From: Escherichia phage vB_EcoS_HdH2
Strand: one strand, 5' to 3'
DNA length: 64,000 bases
Sequence record: NC_048748.1
The notes beneath the pieces are model-generated. The model was given only the letters and a program-made list of their open reading frames with translations, was not told where the DNA came from and made no database searches. Of the stretch, positions 14,593 to 60,072 are shown one piece after another; the stretch's first letter is position 1; the number at the start of each line of letters is the position of its first letter. The translations under genes were made by a program, and so were the position numbers.

Positions 14593-14684
14593 AGTTGTCT
14601 CCGATTTATAAAATATATTATATCTAAATTTCACTCAGTAAGCAAATGAAATTTAAATATAATAGCCCCGAAGGGCTATTTGAG

Positions 14685-17199: not shown

Positions 17200-17269
17200 T
17201 GATTTTCCTCTTTCTCACTATTTCAGGAATATTATAGCAAATCAGGTAGCGATTAGCAAGTAAAATTTC

Positions 17270-17298
17270 AAAGAAAAAGGAGACCCGAAGATCTCCTT
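17270..17298 (-). terminator. rho-independent terminator after nrdA, followed by the nrdB promoter
   Basis: Stem AGGAGA/TCTCCT with 8-nt loop, followed on the minus strand by TTTTTCTTT. Confidence 0.55.
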
Positions 17299-23079: not shown

Positions 23080-23121
23080 GATAATCAGCCGGGTTGCTAG
23101 TCGACCTGGCTTTTATTTTAT

Positions 23122-31784: not shown

Positions 31785-32093
31785 ATGAGCGAACAGGTAA
31801 ATCAAAACTATGAAGGACACGTTGATGACCAGTCCATCATACTTTGGGAGAAGGAGGGAGAACAAGTAAGATTAACAGTATCTGAATTTCGTGGGAATCT
31901 ATACATGGGTATTCGTTACTGGCTTCTTGATATTAATGATGAATGGTTTCCAACGAAATCTGGCTTCTCTTTTCCTTACACTCTAGAAACAACATCACAG
32001 CTTTTCTATGCGTTTACACAGATTCTTAGCGAATCTGAGGTTTTACATGAAGTACAGAAACGAGCTGAAGAACTCAAAGCCAAGAATGCCTAG
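31785..32093 (+). CDS. PC4-like single-stranded DNA-binding protein
   Basis: PC4-fold-like core (SIILWEKEG, RLTVSEFRGNLYMGIRYW, WFPTKSGFSF); a PC4 homolog has been described in T5. Confidence 0.5.
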   Translation: MSEQVNQNYEGHVDDQSIILWEKEGEQVRLTVSEFRGNLYMGIRYWLLDINDEWFPTKSGFSFPYTLETTSQLFYAFTQILSESEVLHEVQKRAEELKAKNA

Positions 32094-32108
32094 TTCTTGG
32101 CTTTTTCT
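32078..32108 (+). terminator. rho-independent terminator
   Basis: Hairpin AGCCAAGAA-loop-TTCTTGGCT followed by TTTTTC. Confidence 0.55.
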
Positions 32109-32119
32109 TTATAAATGTA

Positions 32120-33381: not shown

Positions 33382-33410
33382 TTGACATTTTCGCCGCTTA
33401 GGTATATACT
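33382..33410 (+). promoter_or_regulatory. sigma70 promoter (TTGACA, 17 nt, TATACT) between the two ligase ORFs
   Basis: TTGACATTTTCGCCG 15-mer shared with the promoter at 4316; a second TGCTATAAT-type promoter lies at about 33480-33505. Confidence 0.55.
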
Positions 33411-33533
33411 ATTATCATTCAGTTGAGGGATAGAAAGTTATGGCGAGGGTAAGCAAAGTTAATTAAAATTGTAGTTGCTAAATGCTTAAATACTTGCTAT
33501 AATATTTATATAAATTGATAAGGAAGAAATTTG

Positions 33534-38104: not shown

Positions 38105-40672
38105 TTGAAAATCGCAGTAGTTGATAAAGCTCTAAATAATACTCGTTATGATAAACATTTCCAGCTATACGGCGAGGAAGTTGATGTATTCCATATGTGT
38201 AACGAGAAGTTATCTGGTCGTTTGCTTAAAAAGCACATTACTATTGGAACACCAGAAAACCCATTTGATCCGAATGATTATGATTTTGTTATACTAGTAG
38301 GTGCTGAACCTTTCCTGTACTTTGCAGGTAAGAAAGGTATTGGTGATTATACCGGTAAACGTGTAGAGTATAATGGATATGCTAACTGGATTGCGAGTAT
38401 CAGCCCAGCCCAGTTACACTTTAAACCTGAAATGAAACCAGTTTTTGATGCAACAGTAGAGAATATCCACGATATTATCAATGGTCGTGAGAAGATTGCA
38501 AAAGCTGGTGATTACCGTCCTATTACTGACCCTGATGAGGCAGAAGAATATATCAAGATGGTGTATAATATGGTTATCGGACCTGTCGCATTCGACTCCG
38601 AAACCTCAGCACTATACTGTCGAGATGGTTATCTGCTTGGTGTTTCTATGTCTCACCAAGAGTATCAGGGTGTATATATCGATTCTGATTGTCTCACAGA
38701 GGTTGCAGTATATTATCTCCAGAAAATTCTAGATAGTGAAAACCACACTATTGTTTTTCACAACTTGAAGTTTGATATGCACTTTTATAAGTACCATCTG
38801 GGACTTACTTTTGATAAAGCACATAAAGAACGCAGGCTCCATGATACCATGTTGCAGCACTATGTTCTAGATGAACGTCGTGGTACTCATGGCTTGAAAT
38901 CTCTAGCAATGAAGTATACCGATATGGGTGACTACGACTTCGAACTAGATAAGTTCAAAGATGATTACTGCAAAGCACATAAAATCAAGAAAGAAGATTT
39001 CACCTATGATTTAATTCCATTTGATATTATGTGGCCGTATGCTGCGAAAGATACAGATGCTACCCTACGTTTACACAACTTCTTTTTACCAAAAATTGAG
39101 AAGAATGAAAAACTTTGCAGTCTGTATTACGATGTTCTAATGCCTGGTTGTGTATTCCTACAGCGTGTCGAAGATCGTGGAGTACCTATATCTATTGATC
39201 GTTTGAAAGAAGCTCAGTATCAGTTAACTCATAACCTGAATAAAGCCCGTGAGAAACTGTATACTTATCCAGAAGTTAAACAGCTAGAACAAGATCAGAA
39301 TGAAGCATTTAACCCGAATTCTGTTAAGCAACTTCGTGTTCTTCTGTTCGATTATGTTGGTTTGACTCCAACTGGTAAGTTAACGGATACTGGTGCAGAT
39401 TCTACAAACGCAGAAGCTCTGAATGAACTGGCTACGCAGCATCCGATTGCTAAAACTCTTCTAGAGATTCGTAAACTGACTAAGCTGATCTCTACTTATG
39501 TTGAGAAGATTCTACTGAGTATTGATGCAGATGGTTGCATTCGTACTGGTTTCCATGAACATATGACTACTTCTGGTCGTCTAAGTTCTTCTGGTAAACT
39601 GAACCTGCAACAGTTACCTCGTGATGAATCTATCATTAAGGGTTGTGTAGTTGCACCACCTGGATACCGTGTAATCGCATGGGACTTAACAACTGCGGAA
39701 GTTTATTATGCTGCTGTTCTATCTGGTGATAGAAATATGCAACAAGTATTTATCAACATGAGAAATGAACCTGATAAATACCCTGACTTCCACTCTAACA
39801 TCGCCCACATGGTATTTAAATTGCAATGTGAACCCCGTGATGTTAAAAAGTTGTTCCCAGCTCTGCGTCAGGCTGCTAAGGCAATTACCTTCGGTATTCT
39901 GTATGGCTCTGGCCCGGCTAAAGTAGCTCATTCTGTTAATGAAGCTCTTCTGGAACAGGCTGCTAAGACAGGAGAACCGTTTGTTGAATGTACTGTTGCG
40001 GATGCGAAGGACTATATCGAAACTTACTTCGGTCAGTTCCCACAGCTTAAGCGTTGGATTGATAAGTGCCACGATCAAATCAAGAATCATGGGTTTATCT
40101 ATAGTCACTTTGGTCGTAAACGTCGTCTGCATAATATCCATTCCGAAGACCGTGGCGTTCAGGGTGAAGAAATTCGTTCTGGATTTAACGCAATCATTCA
40201 GTCTGCTTCTTCTGATAGTCTCCTTTTAGGTGCTGTAGATGCAGATAATGAAATCATTTCTCTTGGTTTAGAACAAGAGATGAAGATTGTTATGCTGGTT
40301 CATGACTCCGTAGTTGCTATTGTTCGTGAGGATTTGATCGACCAATACAATGAAATCCTGATTCGTAATATTCAGAAAGACCGTGGTATCAGTATTCCTG
40401 GCTGTCCGATTGGTATTGATTCAGATTCTGAAGCTGGAGGTTCTCGTGACTATTCTTGTGGTAAGATGAAGAAACAGCACCCATCAATCGCTTGTATTGA
40501 TGATGATGAATATACTCGTTATGTCAAGGGTGTATTACTTGATGCAGATTTCGAGTATAAGAAATTAGCTGCAATGGATAAAGAGCATCCAGACCACAGC
40601 AAGTACAAGGATGATAAGTTTATTGCTGTATGCAAAGATCTGGATAACGTGAAAAGGATTCTCGGTGCTTAA
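38105..40672 (+). CDS. pol: family-A DNA polymerase with 3'-5' exonuclease domain (T5 polymerase-like, 855 aa)
   Basis: Exo motifs (FDSETS, YAAKD) and Pol A motifs (DLTTAEVY, RQAAKAITFGILYG, HDS); TTG start behind AAGAGGAG RBS; size and sequence match recalled T5 polymerase. Confidence 0.9.
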   Translation: MKIAVVDKALNNTRYDKHFQLYGEEVDVFHMCNEKLSGRLLKKHITIGTPENPFDPNDYDFVILVGAEPFLYFAGKKGIGDYTGKRVEYNGYANWIASISPAQLHFKPEMKPVFDATVENIHDIINGREKIAKAGDYRPITDPDEAEEYIKMVYNMVIGPVAFDSETSALYCRDGYLLGVSMSHQEYQGVYIDSDCLTEVAVYYLQKILDSENHTIVFHNLKFDMHFYKYHLGLTFDKAHKERRLHDTMLQHYVLDERRGTHGLKSLAMKYTDMGDYDFELDKFKDDYCKAHKIKKEDFTYDLIPFDIMWPYAAKDTDATLRLHNFFLPKIEKNEKLCSLYYDVLMPGCVFLQRVEDRGVPISIDRLKEAQYQLTHNLNKAREKLYTYPEVKQLEQDQNEAFNPNSVKQLRVLLFDYVGLTPTGKLTDTGADSTNAEALNELATQHPIAKTLLEIRKLTKLISTYVEKILLSIDADGCIRTGFHEHMTTSGRLSSSGKLNLQQLPRDESIIKGCVVAPPGYRVIAWDLTTAEVYYAAVLSGDRNMQQVFINMRNEPDKYPDFHSNIAHMVFKLQCEPRDVKKLFPALRQAAKAITFGILYGSGPAKVAHSVNEALLEQAAKTGEPFVECTVADAKDYIETYFGQFPQLKRWIDKCHDQIKNHGFIYSHFGRKRRLHNIHSEDRGVQGEEIRSGFNAIIQSASSDSLLLGAVDADNEIISLGLEQEMKIVMLVHDSVVAIVREDLIDQYNEILIRNIQKDRGISIPGCPIGIDSDSEAGGSRDYSCGKMKKQHPSIACIDDDEYTRYVKGVLLDADFEYKKLAAMDKEHPDHSKYKDDKFIAVCKDLDNVKRILGA

Positions 40673-41162
40673 TTTCAAATTGCCCGTCTATGCGTTACGG
40701 GCGTTTGTATCAATTGAGCAAGAAGGTGATTATTCCGTAATTACAACAAGATATAATAAATATGTGCTAGATAACAGGAAGTTGCCTGGCACGTTTTCTC
40801 AACGTAGGCTTATTCTATTTGAGAAACGGAAAGAATTACCATACAAGCTCTATCCTATTAGGGGTAGAATATCAATGTTGTCTCAATTAGTTGGGTCAAA
40901 GCGTAACCAATTTATAGATTCTGATGGAAATCTTATTAATTGGAAGAAAACTACGTTCTATGATGTTGTCACCTCTAAAGTTTTGCATTCAGCTAGAATT
41001 TATAATGGAAAATACCAATGCTATGTGGCTAAAGTCCCTTATCCGTTTGTATTATCCTATGTTCCAGCTTATATAAGCTATATTCTGGTAAATAATAGCC
41101 CTGTTATTTATCAAGTCCATCAAGAGGAGCCTGAAATTCCTAGACTTAGAATAAAATTATGA
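40665..41162 (+). CDS. hypothetical protein (165 aa), AT-rich codon usage
   Basis: ORF between polymerase and helicase with composition unlike its neighbours; possible inserted gene. Confidence 0.4.
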   Translation: MLNFKLPVYALRAFVSIEQEGDYSVITTRYNKYVLDNRKLPGTFSQRRLILFEKRKELPYKLYPIRGRISMLSQLVGSKRNQFIDSDGNLINWKKTTFYDVVTSKVLHSARIYNGKYQCYVAKVPYPFVLSYVPAYISYILVNNSPVIYQVHQEEPEIPRLRIKL

Positions 41163-42511
41163 AGGTTGTTATATCTAATAAAGCCTATTTCAAGCCCGAT
41201 GATGAACTTTGGGATTATTGTAGTAAGCAAACCACTTATCACATAGAGACAATGACTAGTAAATACCCTATTATGTATAAGAATAGTGGTGTTGTTGCCA
41301 AAGAGATTAAGTGGATTCCTATTACGCGTCTGGACTTACTAGATGCTAAAGGAGTAAAATACGAATTAGTCGATAAACGCACATTAGCTCCGGTAGATAT
41401 ACCAAAACCTAAGTTCAAACTGCGTGAAGAAGATCAGCTTCCAATATACGAAGAATGCGATGATACTTGTATTATTAATGGTAAGCCTGGATTTGGTAAA
41501 ACTATCCTAGCCCTTGCACTTGCGTATAAATTTGGCCAGAAAACTCTGGTAATTTGTACGAATACATCCATTCGTGAAATGTGGGCGGCAGAAGTTCGTA
41601 AATGGTTTGGGTTTGAACCAGGCATCATAGGTTCTGGGAAATACAATATCGATCCACCAATTGTAGTCAGTAATATTCAAACAGTGAATAAACATGCGAA
41701 TAATCTTTCTAAAGTATTCGGTACTGTTATAGTTGATGAAGTTCACCATTGTGTGGCTACAACTTTCACTAACTTCCTAGAAATATCATGTGCTCGCTAT
41801 AAAATTGGACTATCCGGTACACTAAAACGAAAAGATGGTTTGCAAGTTATGTTCAAAGATTTCTTTGGGTATAAAATCTTTAGTCCTCCAGTTAATAATA
41901 CTGTTGCTCCTACAATCCACAGGTACTCAGTACCAGTTGAATTGTCTGGAAACCAAAACGTACCGTGGGCATTACGTGCTAACGATGTGTATAATCATCC
42001 TGAATATCGAGAGACTATTATAAACCTAGCACATTTATATGTGAATATGGGACATAAAGTACTCATTGTAAGTGATAGAACAGAGTTAATCCAAACAGTA
42101 CTAGAAGCACTATCTCAGAGAGGAATCACAACCTATGAAATTATAGGAGCAACCCACTTAGATGACCGATTAAAAATTCAGGAAGATATAGCAAAAGGTG
42201 GGCCTTGTGTACTTGCAGCAGCTCAAAGTATCTTCTCTGAAGGTATTTCCCTTAATGAGCTGTCTTGTTTAATAATGGGAAGCCTCATTAATAATGAATC
42301 TCTCATTGAACAGCTTGCAGGCCGTGTTCAACGTATTGTCGAGGGCAAACTCGACCCTATTGTTGTAGATCTAATTATGAAAGGTGGTACTGGTCTAAGA
42401 CAGGCTTCTGGACGTATGGCAGTATATCGTAACAACGGGTGGAAAACTATTACCATGACTCCTGAGAAAGCAGTTCAATTAGCTAAAATTGCATTTGGCA
42501 ACAGCTCATAA
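41159..42511 (+). CDS. SF2 DExH-box helicase (T5 D10-like)
   Basis: Walker A GKPGFGKT, DExH VDEVHH, helicase C-terminal motifs (QLAGRVQR). Confidence 0.65.
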   Translation: MKVVISNKAYFKPDDELWDYCSKQTTYHIETMTSKYPIMYKNSGVVAKEIKWIPITRLDLLDAKGVKYELVDKRTLAPVDIPKPKFKLREEDQLPIYEECDDTCIINGKPGFGKTILALALAYKFGQKTLVICTNTSIREMWAAEVRKWFGFEPGIIGSGKYNIDPPIVVSNIQTVNKHANNLSKVFGTVIVDEVHHCVATTFTNFLEISCARYKIGLSGTLKRKDGLQVMFKDFFGYKIFSPPVNNTVAPTIHRYSVPVELSGNQNVPWALRANDVYNHPEYRETIINLAHLYVNMGHKVLIVSDRTELIQTVLEALSQRGITTYEIIGATHLDDRLKIQEDIAKGGPCVLAAAQSIFSEGISLNELSCLIMGSLINNESLIEQLAGRVQRIVEGKLDPIVVDLIMKGGTGLRQASGRMAVYRNNGWKTITMTPEKAVQLAKIAFGNSS

Positions 42512-42735
42512 ATGATGTATAATATATACATAAATTTGAGAGAGAAAGTTTCGGATTGATAAGAAAGTCCGAAGCAGAAAAATAAAAATTTTAGTTGCTA
42601 AATTCTCTCGAAATCTAGTATAATATATATATACATAAATTCGAGGAGAAAACAAAAATTAAATTCTTCGATTATGAAAAGCTATACTTACTAGCTAGAG
42701 GAAATTCCGACCTAATTATTAAGCTCTTCAAAAGA

Positions 42736-43020
42736 ATGCTTACAGAGCCTGATGCTCACCAATTATTGGTCGGTTCCTCATTCATTTTAAATGAATCAAC
42801 AATAGTTAATAATCCAAATAAATTGTCTAATAGACAACTGGCAGAATATCTAGGAATTTTAAGTCTACGAAATTATGCCGAATACAAGTTTACAAACGAT
42901 CCTAGTTTGGACATGCAATATGTTCCAGTATGGATACCACGTTTAGTAATCGACACTAACCCACTAATCGCAATTAACAAATCGAAATTAATCTTTAAAG
43001 AGGAAATAAAATATGGCTAA
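42736..43020 (+). CDS. hypothetical protein (94 aa), weakly supported
   Basis: ORF overlapping the RBS of the next gene; weak RBS; AT-rich. Confidence 0.3.
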   Translation: MLTEPDAHQLLVGSSFILNESTIVNNPNKLSNRQLAEYLGILSLRNYAEYKFTNDPSLDMQYVPVWIPRLVIDTNPLIAINKSKLIFKEEIKYG

Positions 43021-43786
43021 GTCTTGGGGCGAAACTACTGGCGGTTCTAACGATAAAATCGAATTCCTGAAGTTCAACAACGGTATCACTCGTGTCCGTA
43101 TCGTTTCTGGTGTTCTTCCACGTTATGTCTATTGGCTGACTAATAAAGAGGGTAGCGTAGCTCCTTTCGAATGTCTTCGTTTCAACCGTGACAAAGAGAG
43201 CTTTGTTCGTGGTAAAGCTGATCCGGTTCATGAGATGGGTTTCTTCGAGAAAGAGCTGGATAAAGATGGTAATCGTGTTCCGCTGAAACCGAAGAAAAAC
43301 TATATCGCTTTTGTTATCGACCGTTCTGATAACAAACTGAAAGTAATGGAAGTCAAAGCTACTATTCTGAAAGGCATCCAGTCTATCATGAAGCAGTTGA
43401 ATCTGGCAACTCCGTTTGATATTGATATTTCTATCGAGAAAAAAGGCAAAGGTTTCGATACTGAGTATGATGTACAGCAGATTGCTGCTATGCAGTTCCA
43501 GATTAAGCTGCAAGATCCTAACAGTGCAGAATCTAAGCAATATGCTGCGGATGTAGATCTGATTGGTGAAGCTATGTGTGATGAAGATGGCGACATCATT
43601 AAGTTCGAAAAAGTTCCTTCTCTGGAACAAACCTATCCGGTTCCTACCTATGAAGAGCAGAAAGAAGCAATTCTAGCCTTCATGGAGGGTCGCGAGAATA
43701 AAGATGATGATGCCAAATCTGGTAATAGCAATGCAGGCTCCCAGAAAGGTATTGACTCAGAAGCTGCAAGCGATCTGGATGACTAA
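43013..43786 (+). CDS. putative single-stranded DNA-binding protein with acidic C-terminal tail
   Basis: AAAGAGGAAAT RBS, codon usage typical of highly expressed genes, acidic tail ...SEAASDLDD; followed by terminator. Confidence 0.45.
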   Translation: MAKSWGETTGGSNDKIEFLKFNNGITRVRIVSGVLPRYVYWLTNKEGSVAPFECLRFNRDKESFVRGKADPVHEMGFFEKELDKDGNRVPLKPKKNYIAFVIDRSDNKLKVMEVKATILKGIQSIMKQLNLATPFDIDISIEKKGKGFDTEYDVQQIAAMQFQIKLQDPNSAESKQYAADVDLIGEAMCDEDGDIIKFEKVPSLEQTYPVPTYEEQKEAILAFMEGRENKDDDAKSGNSNAGSQKGIDSEAASDLDD

Positions 43787-43792
43787 TAGATA

Positions 43793-43818
43793 GAGGGGCT
43801 TCGGCCCCTTTCTTTTTA
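43793..43818 (+). terminator. rho-independent terminator
   Basis: Hairpin GAGGGGC-TTCG-GCCCCTT followed by TCTTTTT. Confidence 0.65.
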
Positions 43819-59967: not shown

Positions 59968-60039
59968 AGTTAATTTCTCCTCTTAGATACAATTATTATA
60001 ATAGTATTAGAAAATTTTATCAAGAAATTTTTATTTTTC

Positions 60040-60072
60040 CATAAAGAAAAGGAGGACTCAAAGTCCTCCTCC
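60040..60072 (-). terminator. rho-independent terminator after the tape measure gene, followed by a sigma70-like promoter
   Basis: Minus-strand hairpin GGAGGACTT-TGA-GTCCTCC followed by TTTTCTTT; downstream TTGATA, 17 nt, TATAAT and RBS TAAGAGGAG before the Dit start. Confidence 0.5.

What the first reader, a model, noticed from the sequence alone, without database searches (positions are those of the whole stretch)
42512..42660. Tandem promoters with a short hairpin transcript between them (candidate small RNA or attenuator)
After the D10-like helicase gene a first promoter (TTGCAT ... TGATGTATAAT, CATAAATTTGAGAG) is followed within about 40 nt by a hairpin (TTCGGA...TCCGAA) and an A/T-rich run. 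A second promoter (TTGCTA ... TAGTATAAT) then precedes the SSB-like gene. The first promoter may make a very short RNA or act as an attenuator.
Basis: seen in the sequence. Interest (0 to 1): 0.4.

Follow-up and report, generated by a model that had tools for sequence, protein, structure and literature searches.

The report
Known T5 tandem promoters P31A/P31B
This is the already annotated pair of strong early promoters (P31A and P31B) that a T5-like phage uses to drive its single-strand-DNA-binding-protein operon; the small hairpin between them lacks the U-run a terminator needs, so a short RNA or attenuator is unlikely and the feature is ordinary.

Summary
The window is a T5-like phage (98% identical to Tequintavirus isolates). 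Both promoters and the hairpin are present at the stated coordinates. The two promoters are orthologues of the features annotated 'P31A' and 'P31B' in the T5 GenBank record AY543070. They belong to the T5 N25-type early promoter family (near-consensus hexamers, A/T-rich upstream block, conserved ATAAATT.GAG transcribed region). Together they drive a two-gene operon, a T5.125-like gene and D11 (SSB), which ends at a canonical terminator.

The hairpin (42548-42575, 10 bp, -12.5 kcal/mol) is non-random and recurs in Epseptimavirus and Sugarlandvirus. It is followed by AGAAAAATAAAAATTTTAG, which is the A/T-rich upstream element of P31B, not a U-run. Five other hairpin-plus-promoter junctions in this window have a T-run directly after the stem; this one does not. 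I found no competing structure, conserved leader peptide, pause consensus or Rfam match. Natural isolates carry stem-breaking substitutions, and other Demerecviridae keep two or three tandem promoters without any hairpin.

Best reading: additive tandem promoters, with a terminator-like stem-loop that lacks its U-run and is read through. The short-RNA or attenuator idea is not supported by sequence, but it has not been tested experimentally. Interest is low.

The parts
41159..42511 (+). D10-type helicase gene (450 aa). Its last codons (..K I A F G N S S stop) carry the upstream region, the -35 and part of the spacer of P31A.
   Evidence: ORF list; annotated as D10 helicase in T5 and relatives.
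42495..42523 (+). Core of promoter P31A: -35 TTGGCA (42495-42500), 17-nt spacer, -10 TATAAT (42518-42523). Predicted start is the A at 42530.
   Evidence: Promoter scan gives 11 of 12 matches. Corresponds to the features 'promoter P31A' and 'P-31A' of AY543070. A helicase-end promoter with AAAATTGCATTTGGCAA is kept at nucleotide level in several genera. The start position is inferred from N25-type promoters, not mapped.
42530..42547 (+). Initial transcribed sequence of P31A, ATAAATTTGAGAGAGAAA (N25-type).
   Evidence: The motif recurs 5 times in the window against 0 expected. The N25 initial transcribed sequence is known to control promoter escape (PMC12464699).
42548..42575 (+). Stem-loop GTTTCGGATT-GATAAGAA-AGTCCGAAGC (10 bp, 8-nt loop) with no U-run after it.
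   Evidence: Folding results. Identical in Tequintavirus and Epseptimavirus. Sugarlandvirus has CTTCGGA-AAG-TCCGAAG at the same place. Natural stem-breaking variants exist.
42576..42594 (+). A/T-rich upstream (UP-like) element of P31B, AGAAAAATAAAAATTTTAG.
   Evidence: It abuts the -35. The same kind of block (TTAAAAATTT.. or GAAAAATAAAAATTTC) precedes the -35 of most T5-type promoters in the window.
42595..42624 (+). Core of promoter P31B: -35 TTGCTA, 18-nt spacer, -10 TATAAT. Predicted start is about 42631.
   Evidence: Promoter scan. Corresponds to 'promoter P31B' and 'P-31B' in AY543070 and to an annotated promoter in AKFV33.
42625..42634 (+). Discriminator ATATATATAC, 4 nt longer (an extra ATAT) than the ATATAC of every related sequence examined.
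   Evidence: Variant table.
42643..42660 (+). Shine-Dalgarno GAGGAG (42643-42648) and the probable ATT start codon (42658-42660) of the T5.125-like gene.
   Evidence: The 26 codons upstream of the annotated ATG are in frame with no stop. They are conserved as protein across Demerecviridae, with ATG or GTG at this codon in other genera.
42658..43020 (+). T5.125-like gene (120 codons, function unknown), first gene of the operon.
   Evidence: phrog_4258, E = 1e-61, covering residues 2-120; alignment A1.
43013..43786 (+). D11, the single-strand-DNA-binding protein gene and second gene of the operon. It has its own SD (GAGGAA), and its start overlaps the stop of the previous gene.
   Evidence: phrog_1607 'single strand DNA binding protein', E = 7e-106; annotations of relatives; sequence.
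43792..43817 (+). Canonical intrinsic terminator closing the operon (GGGGC-TTCG-GCCCC followed by TTTCTTTTT).
   Evidence: Terminator scan; annotated as a terminator in T5.

Best explanation
The region is the orthologue of the phage T5 early promoters P31A and P31B, two sigma-70 promoters of the T5 N25 type whose start sites lie about 101 nt apart.

P31A overlaps the 3' end of the D10 helicase gene. P31B lies just upstream of the T5.125-like gene. Both promoters, together with read-through from the upstream polymerase-helicase genes, feed one short operon: the T5.125-like gene, then D11 (SSB), then a strong terminator. This supplies the large amount of SSB message needed during replication.

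The A/T-rich run after the hairpin is the upstream (UP-like) element of P31B, not a terminator tail.

The hairpin sits where other hairpin-plus-promoter junctions of this genome carry their terminator stem. These junctions resemble the composite terminator/promoter 'PeSL' motifs of T4-type phages. This hairpin has no U-run. I therefore read it as a terminator-like stem-loop without its U-run, possibly a decayed terminator, that RNA polymerase reads through. At most it has a minor role in mRNA stability.

Shown here: the sequence elements, their family membership, the existing annotation, the operon structure, the absent U-run and the comparative pattern. Inferred: the start sites, read-through at the hairpin, and the additive use of the two promoters.
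For: Identity and prior annotation:
- The region is 98% identical to T5-like phages.
- AY543070 annotates promoters P31A and P31B at the orthologous positions. AKFV33 annotates P31B as well.

Promoter quality and family:
- P31A scores 11 of 12 consensus matches. P31B scores 10 of 12 against TTGACA and 12 of 12 when the T5-type -35 TTGCTA is also accepted.
- The conserved initial transcribed motif occurs 5 times against 0 expected.
- About 25 further promoters in the window show the same upstream A/T block.

Operon:
- D11 matches the SSB family phrog_1607 at E = 7e-106.
- A canonical terminator lies at 43792-43817.

No terminator at the hairpin:
- The terminator scan does not call it.
- There is 1 T in the 10 nt after the stem.
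- Five hairpin-promoter junctions in the same window have TTTT(T) directly after GC-rich stems.

Comparative pattern:
- Two or three tandem promoters at this position occur in Tequintavirus, Epseptimavirus, Sugarlandvirus, Novosibvirus, Pogseptimavirus and several uncultured lineages.
- The hairpin occurs only in the first three.
- Three of the 27 distinct T5-like contigs carry a stem-breaking substitution that lowers the energy from -12.5 to between -6.5 and -7.8 kcal/mol.
- Identity between T5 and Eps7 across the hairpin is 0.90-0.92, no higher than the coding flanks.

Composite terminator/promoter motifs are described for T4-type phages (PMC4122927).
Against: - The hairpin is clearly non-random (z = -5.85).
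- Both arms are kept in Sugarlandvirus although the loop differs by 9 nt and the flanks are only about 65% identical. This argues for some selected role, not pure decay.
- In both lineages a promoter lies about 20 nt upstream of the hairpin.
- No transcript-end data exist for this locus, so weak termination or pausing cannot be excluded.
- The additive-promoter model has not been tested. P31A activity in vivo is inferred from sequence and from the T5 annotation, whose experimental basis I could not check (Gentz and Bujard 1985 is not held).
Confidence: 0.62

Rival explanations
1. First reader's model. The hairpin is a functional, perhaps factor-assisted, partial terminator or attenuator. P31A transcripts, and read-through from D10, end there in part. 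This would give a short leader RNA and shield P31B from incoming polymerases.
For: A stable stem-loop lies 19-46 nt after the predicted P31A start. It occupies the position taken by terminator stems at other promoter junctions in the window. The promoter-hairpin-promoter order also occurs in Sugarlandvirus.
Against: - There is no U-run: AGAAAAAUAA follows the stem, and the scan does not call a terminator.
- Only 4 of the 10 pairs are G-C.
- No alternative antiterminator pairing was predicted, and the long-range helix in the predicted fold encloses the hairpin rather than competing with it.
- The 9-codon TTG mini-ORF in the T5 loop is absent in Sugarlandvirus (direct reading).
- The positions 11-12 nt after the stem do not fit the elemental pause consensus G-10 Y-1 G+1 (my reading against published consensus, from my own knowledge).
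- Most Demerecviridae lineages with tandem promoters have no hairpin.
- Stem-breaking variants are viable.
Confidence: 0.1
2. The hairpin is an intercistronic mRNA processing and stability element. RNase E cuts the single-stranded A/U tract at 42576-42594. The stem-loop then protects the 3' end of the upstream pol-D10 message, or of a P31A leader fragment, from 3' exonucleases. This would uncouple the decay of the two messages.
For: The stem-loop is immediately followed by an unstructured A/U-rich stretch, AGAAAAAUAAAAAUUUU. It lies 37 nt after the D10 stop. Arms are conserved while the loop varies between T5 and Sugarlandvirus, which fits a structural RNA role. That such hairpins act as 3' stabilisers is general knowledge, not tested here.
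Against: No compensatory double substitutions were seen. Three of the five stem substitutions observed break a pair. The element is absent in most related genera. The A/U tract is already explained as the upstream element of P31B. No RNA-end data exist.
Confidence: 0.15
3. The P31A leader (hairpin plus a long A/U-rich unstructured stretch reaching the ribosome-binding site) is a translational operator. The model is phage T4 gene 32, where SSB binds cooperatively to an A/U-rich leader, nucleated next to a folded element. Long (P31A and read-through) mRNAs would be autoregulated and short P31B mRNAs would not.
For: The operon encodes the phage SSB. The leader from 42576 to 42660 is A/U-rich and contains several UAAA motifs. 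The first gene uses a weak ATT start codon in all Tequintavirus sequences examined. The resemblance to T4 gene 32 comes from my own knowledge.
Against: The A/U richness is fully explained by the leader being promoter DNA. The element here is a hairpin, not a pseudoknot. The hairpin is missing in most genera that have the same SSB operon. D11 has its own Shine-Dalgarno sequence well downstream. The SD-sequestering hairpin predicted in T5 is not conserved.
Confidence: 0.05
4. The element acts at the DNA level. It could be a protein-binding palindrome (TTCGGA..TCCGAA) upstream of P31B. Alternatively, the whole unit could be a transcription-primed replication origin, like the tandem promoters phi1.1A and phi1.1B plus an A/T-rich tract at the phage T7 primary origin.
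For: The inverted repeat is centred about 70 bp upstream of the P31B start. Tandem promoters plus an A/T tract sit inside the replication gene cluster. The T7 analogy comes from my own knowledge.
Against: The distance between the half-sites is 12 nt in T5 and 3 nt in Sugarlandvirus, which is hard to reconcile with a dimeric binding site. Cumulative GC skew shows no inflection near 42.5 kb; its turning points at about 20 kb and 48 kb lie where the predicted promoters change strand. The motif occurs only once in the window.
Confidence: 0.04

Closest known systems
Phage T5 promoters P31A and P31B (regulatory features at 75467-75541 and 75568-75642 of GenBank AY543070)
   Same: Orthologous position between D10 and T5.125. 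The sequence from the P31A -35 to the P31B -10 is identical.
   Different: This window has an extra ATAT in the P31B discriminator. The T5 record does not annotate the hairpin. It also starts T5.125 at an internal ATG, 78 nt downstream of the start codon supported by conservation.
T5 N25-type early promoters (PN25 and related, used in pQE-type expression vectors)
   Same: TTGCTx -35, 17-18 nt spacer, TATAAT, an A/T-rich upstream block and an ATAAATTTGAGAG initial transcribed sequence. This transcribed sequence is known to set the rate of promoter escape (PMC12464699).
   Different: P31A has its -35 and upstream region inside coding DNA, so its upstream block is less A/T-rich.
PeSL composite terminator/early-promoter motifs of T4-type phages (Arbiol et al. 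2010, PMC2839356; Comeau et al. 2014, PMC4122927)
   Same: A stem-loop placed directly in front of an early sigma-70 promoter at a gene junction. At least five such junctions occur in this window. The hairpin-plus-P31B block is much better conserved between T5 and Sugarlandvirus than its flanks (47 of 51 nt by my count).
   Different: The phage family is unrelated. Here the stem-loop lacks the U-run. I did not test whether these junctions mediate gene shuffling in T5-like phages.
Bacterial intrinsic (Rho-independent) terminators and attenuators
   Same: A stable stem-loop in a leader, just downstream of a promoter.
   Different: There is no U-run, the stem is G-C poor, and there is neither a competing antiterminator structure nor a leader peptide.
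T4 gene 32 autoregulatory leader and the T7 phi1.1A/phi1.1B tandem-promoter origin
   Same: A structured element plus an A/U-rich leader in front of an SSB gene (T4). Tandem promoters plus an A/T tract within the replication genes (T7).
   Different: These are resemblances recalled from my own knowledge. Nothing tested here supports membership.

Membership tests
T5-type sigma-70 early promoter (both P31A and P31B) | -35 and -10 hexamers close to consensus with a 16-18 nt spacer | tested here: met
   P31A: TTGGCA-17-TATAAT, 11 of 12 matches. P31B: TTGCTA-18-TATAAT, 10 of 12 against TTGACA and 12 of 12 when the T5 -35 TTGCTA is also accepted.
T5-type sigma-70 early promoter (both P31A and P31B) | A/T-rich upstream block and a conserved ATAAATT.GAG initial transcribed sequence | tested here: met
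   Motif recurrence of 5 against 0 expected. Upstream blocks are listed. P31A's block is weaker because it lies in coding DNA.
T5-type sigma-70 early promoter (both P31A and P31B) | Transcription start demonstrated in vivo or in vitro | not testable with these tools
   The promoters are annotated in AY543070. I found no start-site data for this locus.
Intrinsic terminator | Stable stem-loop with a short loop | tested here: met
   10 bp, 8-nt loop, -12.5 kcal/mol. Only 4 G-C pairs.
Intrinsic terminator | Run of U directly after the stem | tested here: not met
   AGAAAAAUAA follows the stem, with 1 U in 10 nt. The scan does not call a terminator.
Transcription attenuator | Mutually exclusive terminator and antiterminator structures, or a conserved leader peptide or ligand-binding domain | tested here: not met
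   No competing fold was predicted. The predicted long-range helix is not kept in Eps7 or Sugarlandvirus (direct reading). The mini-ORF is not conserved. There is no Rfam match.
Small regulatory RNA gene | Own promoter plus a defined 3' end, conserved as a unit | tested here: not met
   A promoter is present but no 3'-end signal. There is no Rfam family. The hairpin is absent in most related genera.
PeSL-like composite stem-loop/early-promoter junction | A stem-loop directly upstream of an early promoter, recurring at gene junctions | tested here: met
   The 3' end of the stem lies 19 nt from the -35. Five further junctions have the same layout.
PeSL-like composite stem-loop/early-promoter junction | The stem-loop acts as a terminator, and the motif mediates insertions, deletions or shuffling | tested here: inconclusive
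   The terminator feature is lacking here. A homing-endonuclease gene is inserted nearby in relatives, but upstream of P31A and not at the hairpin.

The most novel reading that the evidence does not exclude
The hairpin plus the A-rich tract (AGAAAAAUAAAAA) is a cis-acting RNA element present only in long transcripts (from P31A and read-through) and absent from P31B transcripts. It would give the SSB operon two differently regulated mRNA classes. Possible mechanisms are autogenous control by D11 in the manner of T4 gene 32, Hfq binding to the A-rich tract, or processing into a stable leader RNA of about 50-60 nt.
Probability: 0.06. Interest if true: 0.45.

Novelty: already known. Interest (0 to 1): 0.12.

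Why it matters
It matters little for discovery. The promoters are annotated features of a classic model phage, and the hairpin shows none of the signatures of a terminator, attenuator or small RNA.

The check is useful mainly for annotation:
- It corrects the -35 assignment of P31A.
- It shows that the A/T run belongs to the second promoter.
- It documents that tandem promoters in front of the SSB operon are widespread in Demerecviridae.
- It shows that the T5.125 gene is annotated too short in the T5 record and probably starts at a rare ATT codon.

If the hairpin did turn out to have a function, it would be a small addition to what is known about T5 early gene expression.

Tried and rejected
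- Rfam search of 41500-43800 at E up to 10: only chance-level hits.
- Long-range helix UUUGAGAGA/UCUCUCGAA, predicted in the 171-nt leader (z = -4.66): rejected. Eps7 has CCUCCC in place of UCUCUC, giving two A.C mismatches, and Sugarlandvirus lacks the GAGAGA partner.
- SD-sequestering hairpin around the ATT start: found only in the T5 group, with weak z-scores, and not conserved.
- Mini-ORFs (TTG-ATA-AGA... of 9 codons; ATGATG... of 15 codons): not conserved in Sugarlandvirus.
- The 49-aa minus-strand ORF at 42506-42655: its frame is broken between this window and T5 by the 4-nt indel.
- Hairpin as a decayed copy of the 5' end of T5.125 (a tandem-duplication origin): similarity beyond the shared transcribed region is not significant (322 of 1000 shuffles reach it).
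- Apparent homologous hairpin in Vibrio phage D386: not significant (z = 0.32).
- Terminator on the minus strand: the tail UUUCUCUCUC is weak, it is not conserved in Sugarlandvirus, and I know of no minus-strand transcription entering the region.
- Origin of replication: no GC-skew inflection near 42.5 kb.
- Pause consensus and boxA-like motif: not met. The GCTCTT at about 42722 is not conserved in T5.
- Homing-endonuclease insertion as the source of the hairpin: the insertion lies upstream of P31A.
- More variants sought in IMG/VR and in metagenomes: only the same 27 viral contigs, plus 8 metagenome contigs with no new hairpin variants.
- Literature searches for T5 start-site, 3'-end or small-RNA data at this locus: nothing found. 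Gentz and Bujard 1985 is not held.
There are no PDB or Pfam matches for T5.125 or D11.

Full report
**What the window is.** The 600 bases around the finding are 97-98% identical to many Tequintavirus (T5-like) genomes. Gene order is that of T5:
- DNA polymerase, 38105-40672
- T5.123-like ORF
- D10 helicase, 41159-42511
- a small ORF, then D11
- a terminator
- D12 and D13

**Check of the observation.**
- Promoter 1 has a perfect -10 (TATAAT, 42518-42523). Its -35 is TTGGCA at 42495-42500 with a 17-nt spacer, giving 11 of 12 matches. There is no extended -10.
- Promoter 1 overlaps the end of the helicase gene. The stop codon lies in the promoter spacer.
- The hairpin is larger than described: 10 bp at 42548-42575 with an 8-nt loop and -12.5 kcal/mol. 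Its z-score is -5.85 on its own and -3.24 in a 71-nt context.
- Promoter 2 is TTGCTA-18-TATAAT at 42595-42624.
- The motif TATAAT-N6-ATAAATTTGAGAG occurs five times in the window against none expected.
- A broader scan finds about 25 promoters with the same A/T-rich upstream block, TTGCTx -35 and ATAAATT transcribed region.
- These are T5 N25-type early promoters. Their initial transcribed sequence is known to govern promoter escape (PMC12464699).

**Already annotated.** The T5 reference record AY543070 carries regulatory features named 'promoter P31A' (75467-75541) and 'promoter P31B' (75568-75642) at exactly the orthologous positions. The sequence from the P31A -35 to the P31B -10 is identical to the window. 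AKFV33 also annotates P31B. The tandem promoters are therefore known. The hairpin is not annotated in either record.

**What the promoters drive.**
- The ORF after P31B is annotated in T5 as T5.125, 94 codons from an internal ATG.
- The 26 codons upstream are open and in frame. They are conserved as protein in every Demerecviridae lineage examined.
- Other genera have ATG or GTG at that position, whereas all Tequintavirus sequences have ATT (42658) behind a strong GAGGAG. The gene is therefore 120 codons long and probably starts at ATT.
- T5.125 matches phrog_4258 (function unknown).
- The next gene, D11, matches phrog_1607, 'single strand DNA binding protein', at E = 7e-106.
- A canonical terminator follows at 43792-43817.
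- The unit is thus two promoters, T5.125, the SSB gene and a terminator.

**Is the hairpin a terminator or attenuator?**
- The stem is followed by AGAAAAATAAAAATTTTAG and then the -35 of P31B.
- That run matches the A/T block in front of most T5-type promoters here. One example is GAAAAATAAAAATTTC before the promoter at 60023 on the minus strand. It is best read as P31B's upstream element.
- Only one of the ten bases after the stem is T, and the terminator scan does not call the site.
- Five other promoters in the window have a stem-loop in the same position. These lie at 23088-23121 and 32076-32112 on the plus strand, and at 14655-14680, 17269-17298 and 60040-60072 on the minus strand.
- In four of the five a G-C-rich stem runs straight into TTTT(T); in the fifth (14655-14680) the stem is followed by TTATATTT.
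- The P31B hairpin thus has the layout of these composite terminator-promoter junctions without the U-run.
- No competing structure was predicted. The long-range helix in the 171-nt fold encloses the hairpin and is not conserved.
- No leader peptide is conserved, the pause consensus is not met and Rfam has nothing.

**Comparative evidence.**
- Two or three tandem promoters between the helicase and the T5.125 homologue occur in many lineages: Tequintavirus, Epseptimavirus, Sugarlandvirus (three promoters), Novosibvirus, Pogseptimavirus (three) and several uncultured groups.
- Two lineages have a single promoter, the P31A equivalent. Some Vibrio phages have an extra gene inserted.
- The promoter that overlaps the helicase 3' end is kept at nucleotide level (AAAATTGCATTTGGCAA) across genera.
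- The hairpin is found only in Tequintavirus and Epseptimavirus (identical sequence) and in Sugarlandvirus.
- In Sugarlandvirus it reads CTTCGGA-AAG-TCCGAAG. This is the same 3' arm with a loop 9 nt shorter, or equivalently a 5' arm placed differently.
- The block from the 3' arm through P31B's spacer is about 92% identical between T5 and Sugarlandvirus, against about 65% in the flanks (my count).
- This conservation speaks for some constraint, or for exchange of the hairpin-plus-promoter block as a unit.
- Against a strict requirement, five stem substitutions occur among the 27 distinct T5-like contigs. Three break a pair and lower the energy to between -6.5 and -7.8 kcal/mol. Two give G-U pairs. 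None is compensatory.
- Identity between T5 and Eps7 over the hairpin (0.90-0.92) is no higher than in coding DNA.
- Searches of IMG/VR and metagenomes gave no further variants.

**Most likely mechanism.**
- P31A and P31B act additively, together with read-through from the polymerase-helicase genes. Together they give high early expression of the SSB operon.
- The hairpin is a terminator-like stem-loop lacking its U-run, which polymerase reads through.
- It resembles the stem-loop half of the 'PeSL' composite terminator/early-promoter motifs of T4-type phages (PMC4122927; PMC2839356).
- A modest role as a 3'-end protecting structure after RNase E cleavage in the A/U tract is the most plausible residual function, but it is untested.
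The reasons are given under the rival explanations.

**Limits.** No experimental 5' or 3' end data for this locus could be found. Start sites and read-through are therefore inferences from sequence.

**Verdict.** Novelty: already known. Interest: low.

Noticed in passing
window 42643-42738 (T5 AY543070 about 75635-75726): The T5.125-like gene almost certainly starts at ATT (42658) behind GAGGAG, not at the ATG (42736) used in the T5 record. The 26 upstream codons are conserved as protein across Demerecviridae. Between T5 and Eps7 I count 9 synonymous and 4 conservative changes in them. Other genera have ATG or GTG at that codon, and Epseptimavirus pairs ATG with a weaker SD. An AUU start is rare in E. 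coli (infC, pcnB) and suggests deliberately low or IF3-sensitive translation.
   Followed up: partly
L003 (saus132) 700-1265; also L002 (beppo) and L004 (SHSML-45): Some relatives carry an HNH homing-endonuclease gene inserted at the 3' end of the helicase gene. The helicase gets a new C-terminus (..AVRLAQEVFKA). A 26-nt remnant of the old 3' end (AATTGCATTTGGCAACTGCTCATAA), containing the P31A -35, is kept downstream of the endonuclease gene, so P31A stays intact.
   Followed up: partly
The extra ATAT should move the start site relative to the conserved ATAAATT transcribed sequence, or it may be an assembly slip in the (AT)n run.
   Followed up: partly
window 23088-23121(+), 32076-32112(+), 14655-14680(-), 17269-17298(-), 60040-60072(-): Composite junctions in which a terminator stem-loop with its T-run merges into the A/T-rich upstream block of the next T5-type promoter. 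They resemble the PeSL motifs of T4-type phages. Whether they mark recombination or indel hot spots in T5-like phages was not examined.
   Followed up: partly
window 33382-33503 (+): A second tandem promoter pair lies 93 nt apart (TTGACA-17-TATACT at 33382 and TTGCTA-17-TATAAT at 33475), with no notable hairpin between them.
   Followed up: no
L006 (Klebsiella phage vB_Kpn13-P2) 1430-1660; L038; L066-L067: Sugarlandvirus has three promoters in this intergenic region. The ATG of the T5.125 homologue starts only 4 nt after the -10 of the proximal promoter, so that promoter would give a leaderless or nearly leaderless mRNA.
   Followed up: no
L036 (Vibrio phage Ceto) 230-634; L072-L073: In some Vibrio-phage lineages an extra gene of unknown function sits between the helicase and the T5.125 homologue. 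Only one promoter then precedes T5.125.
   Followed up: no
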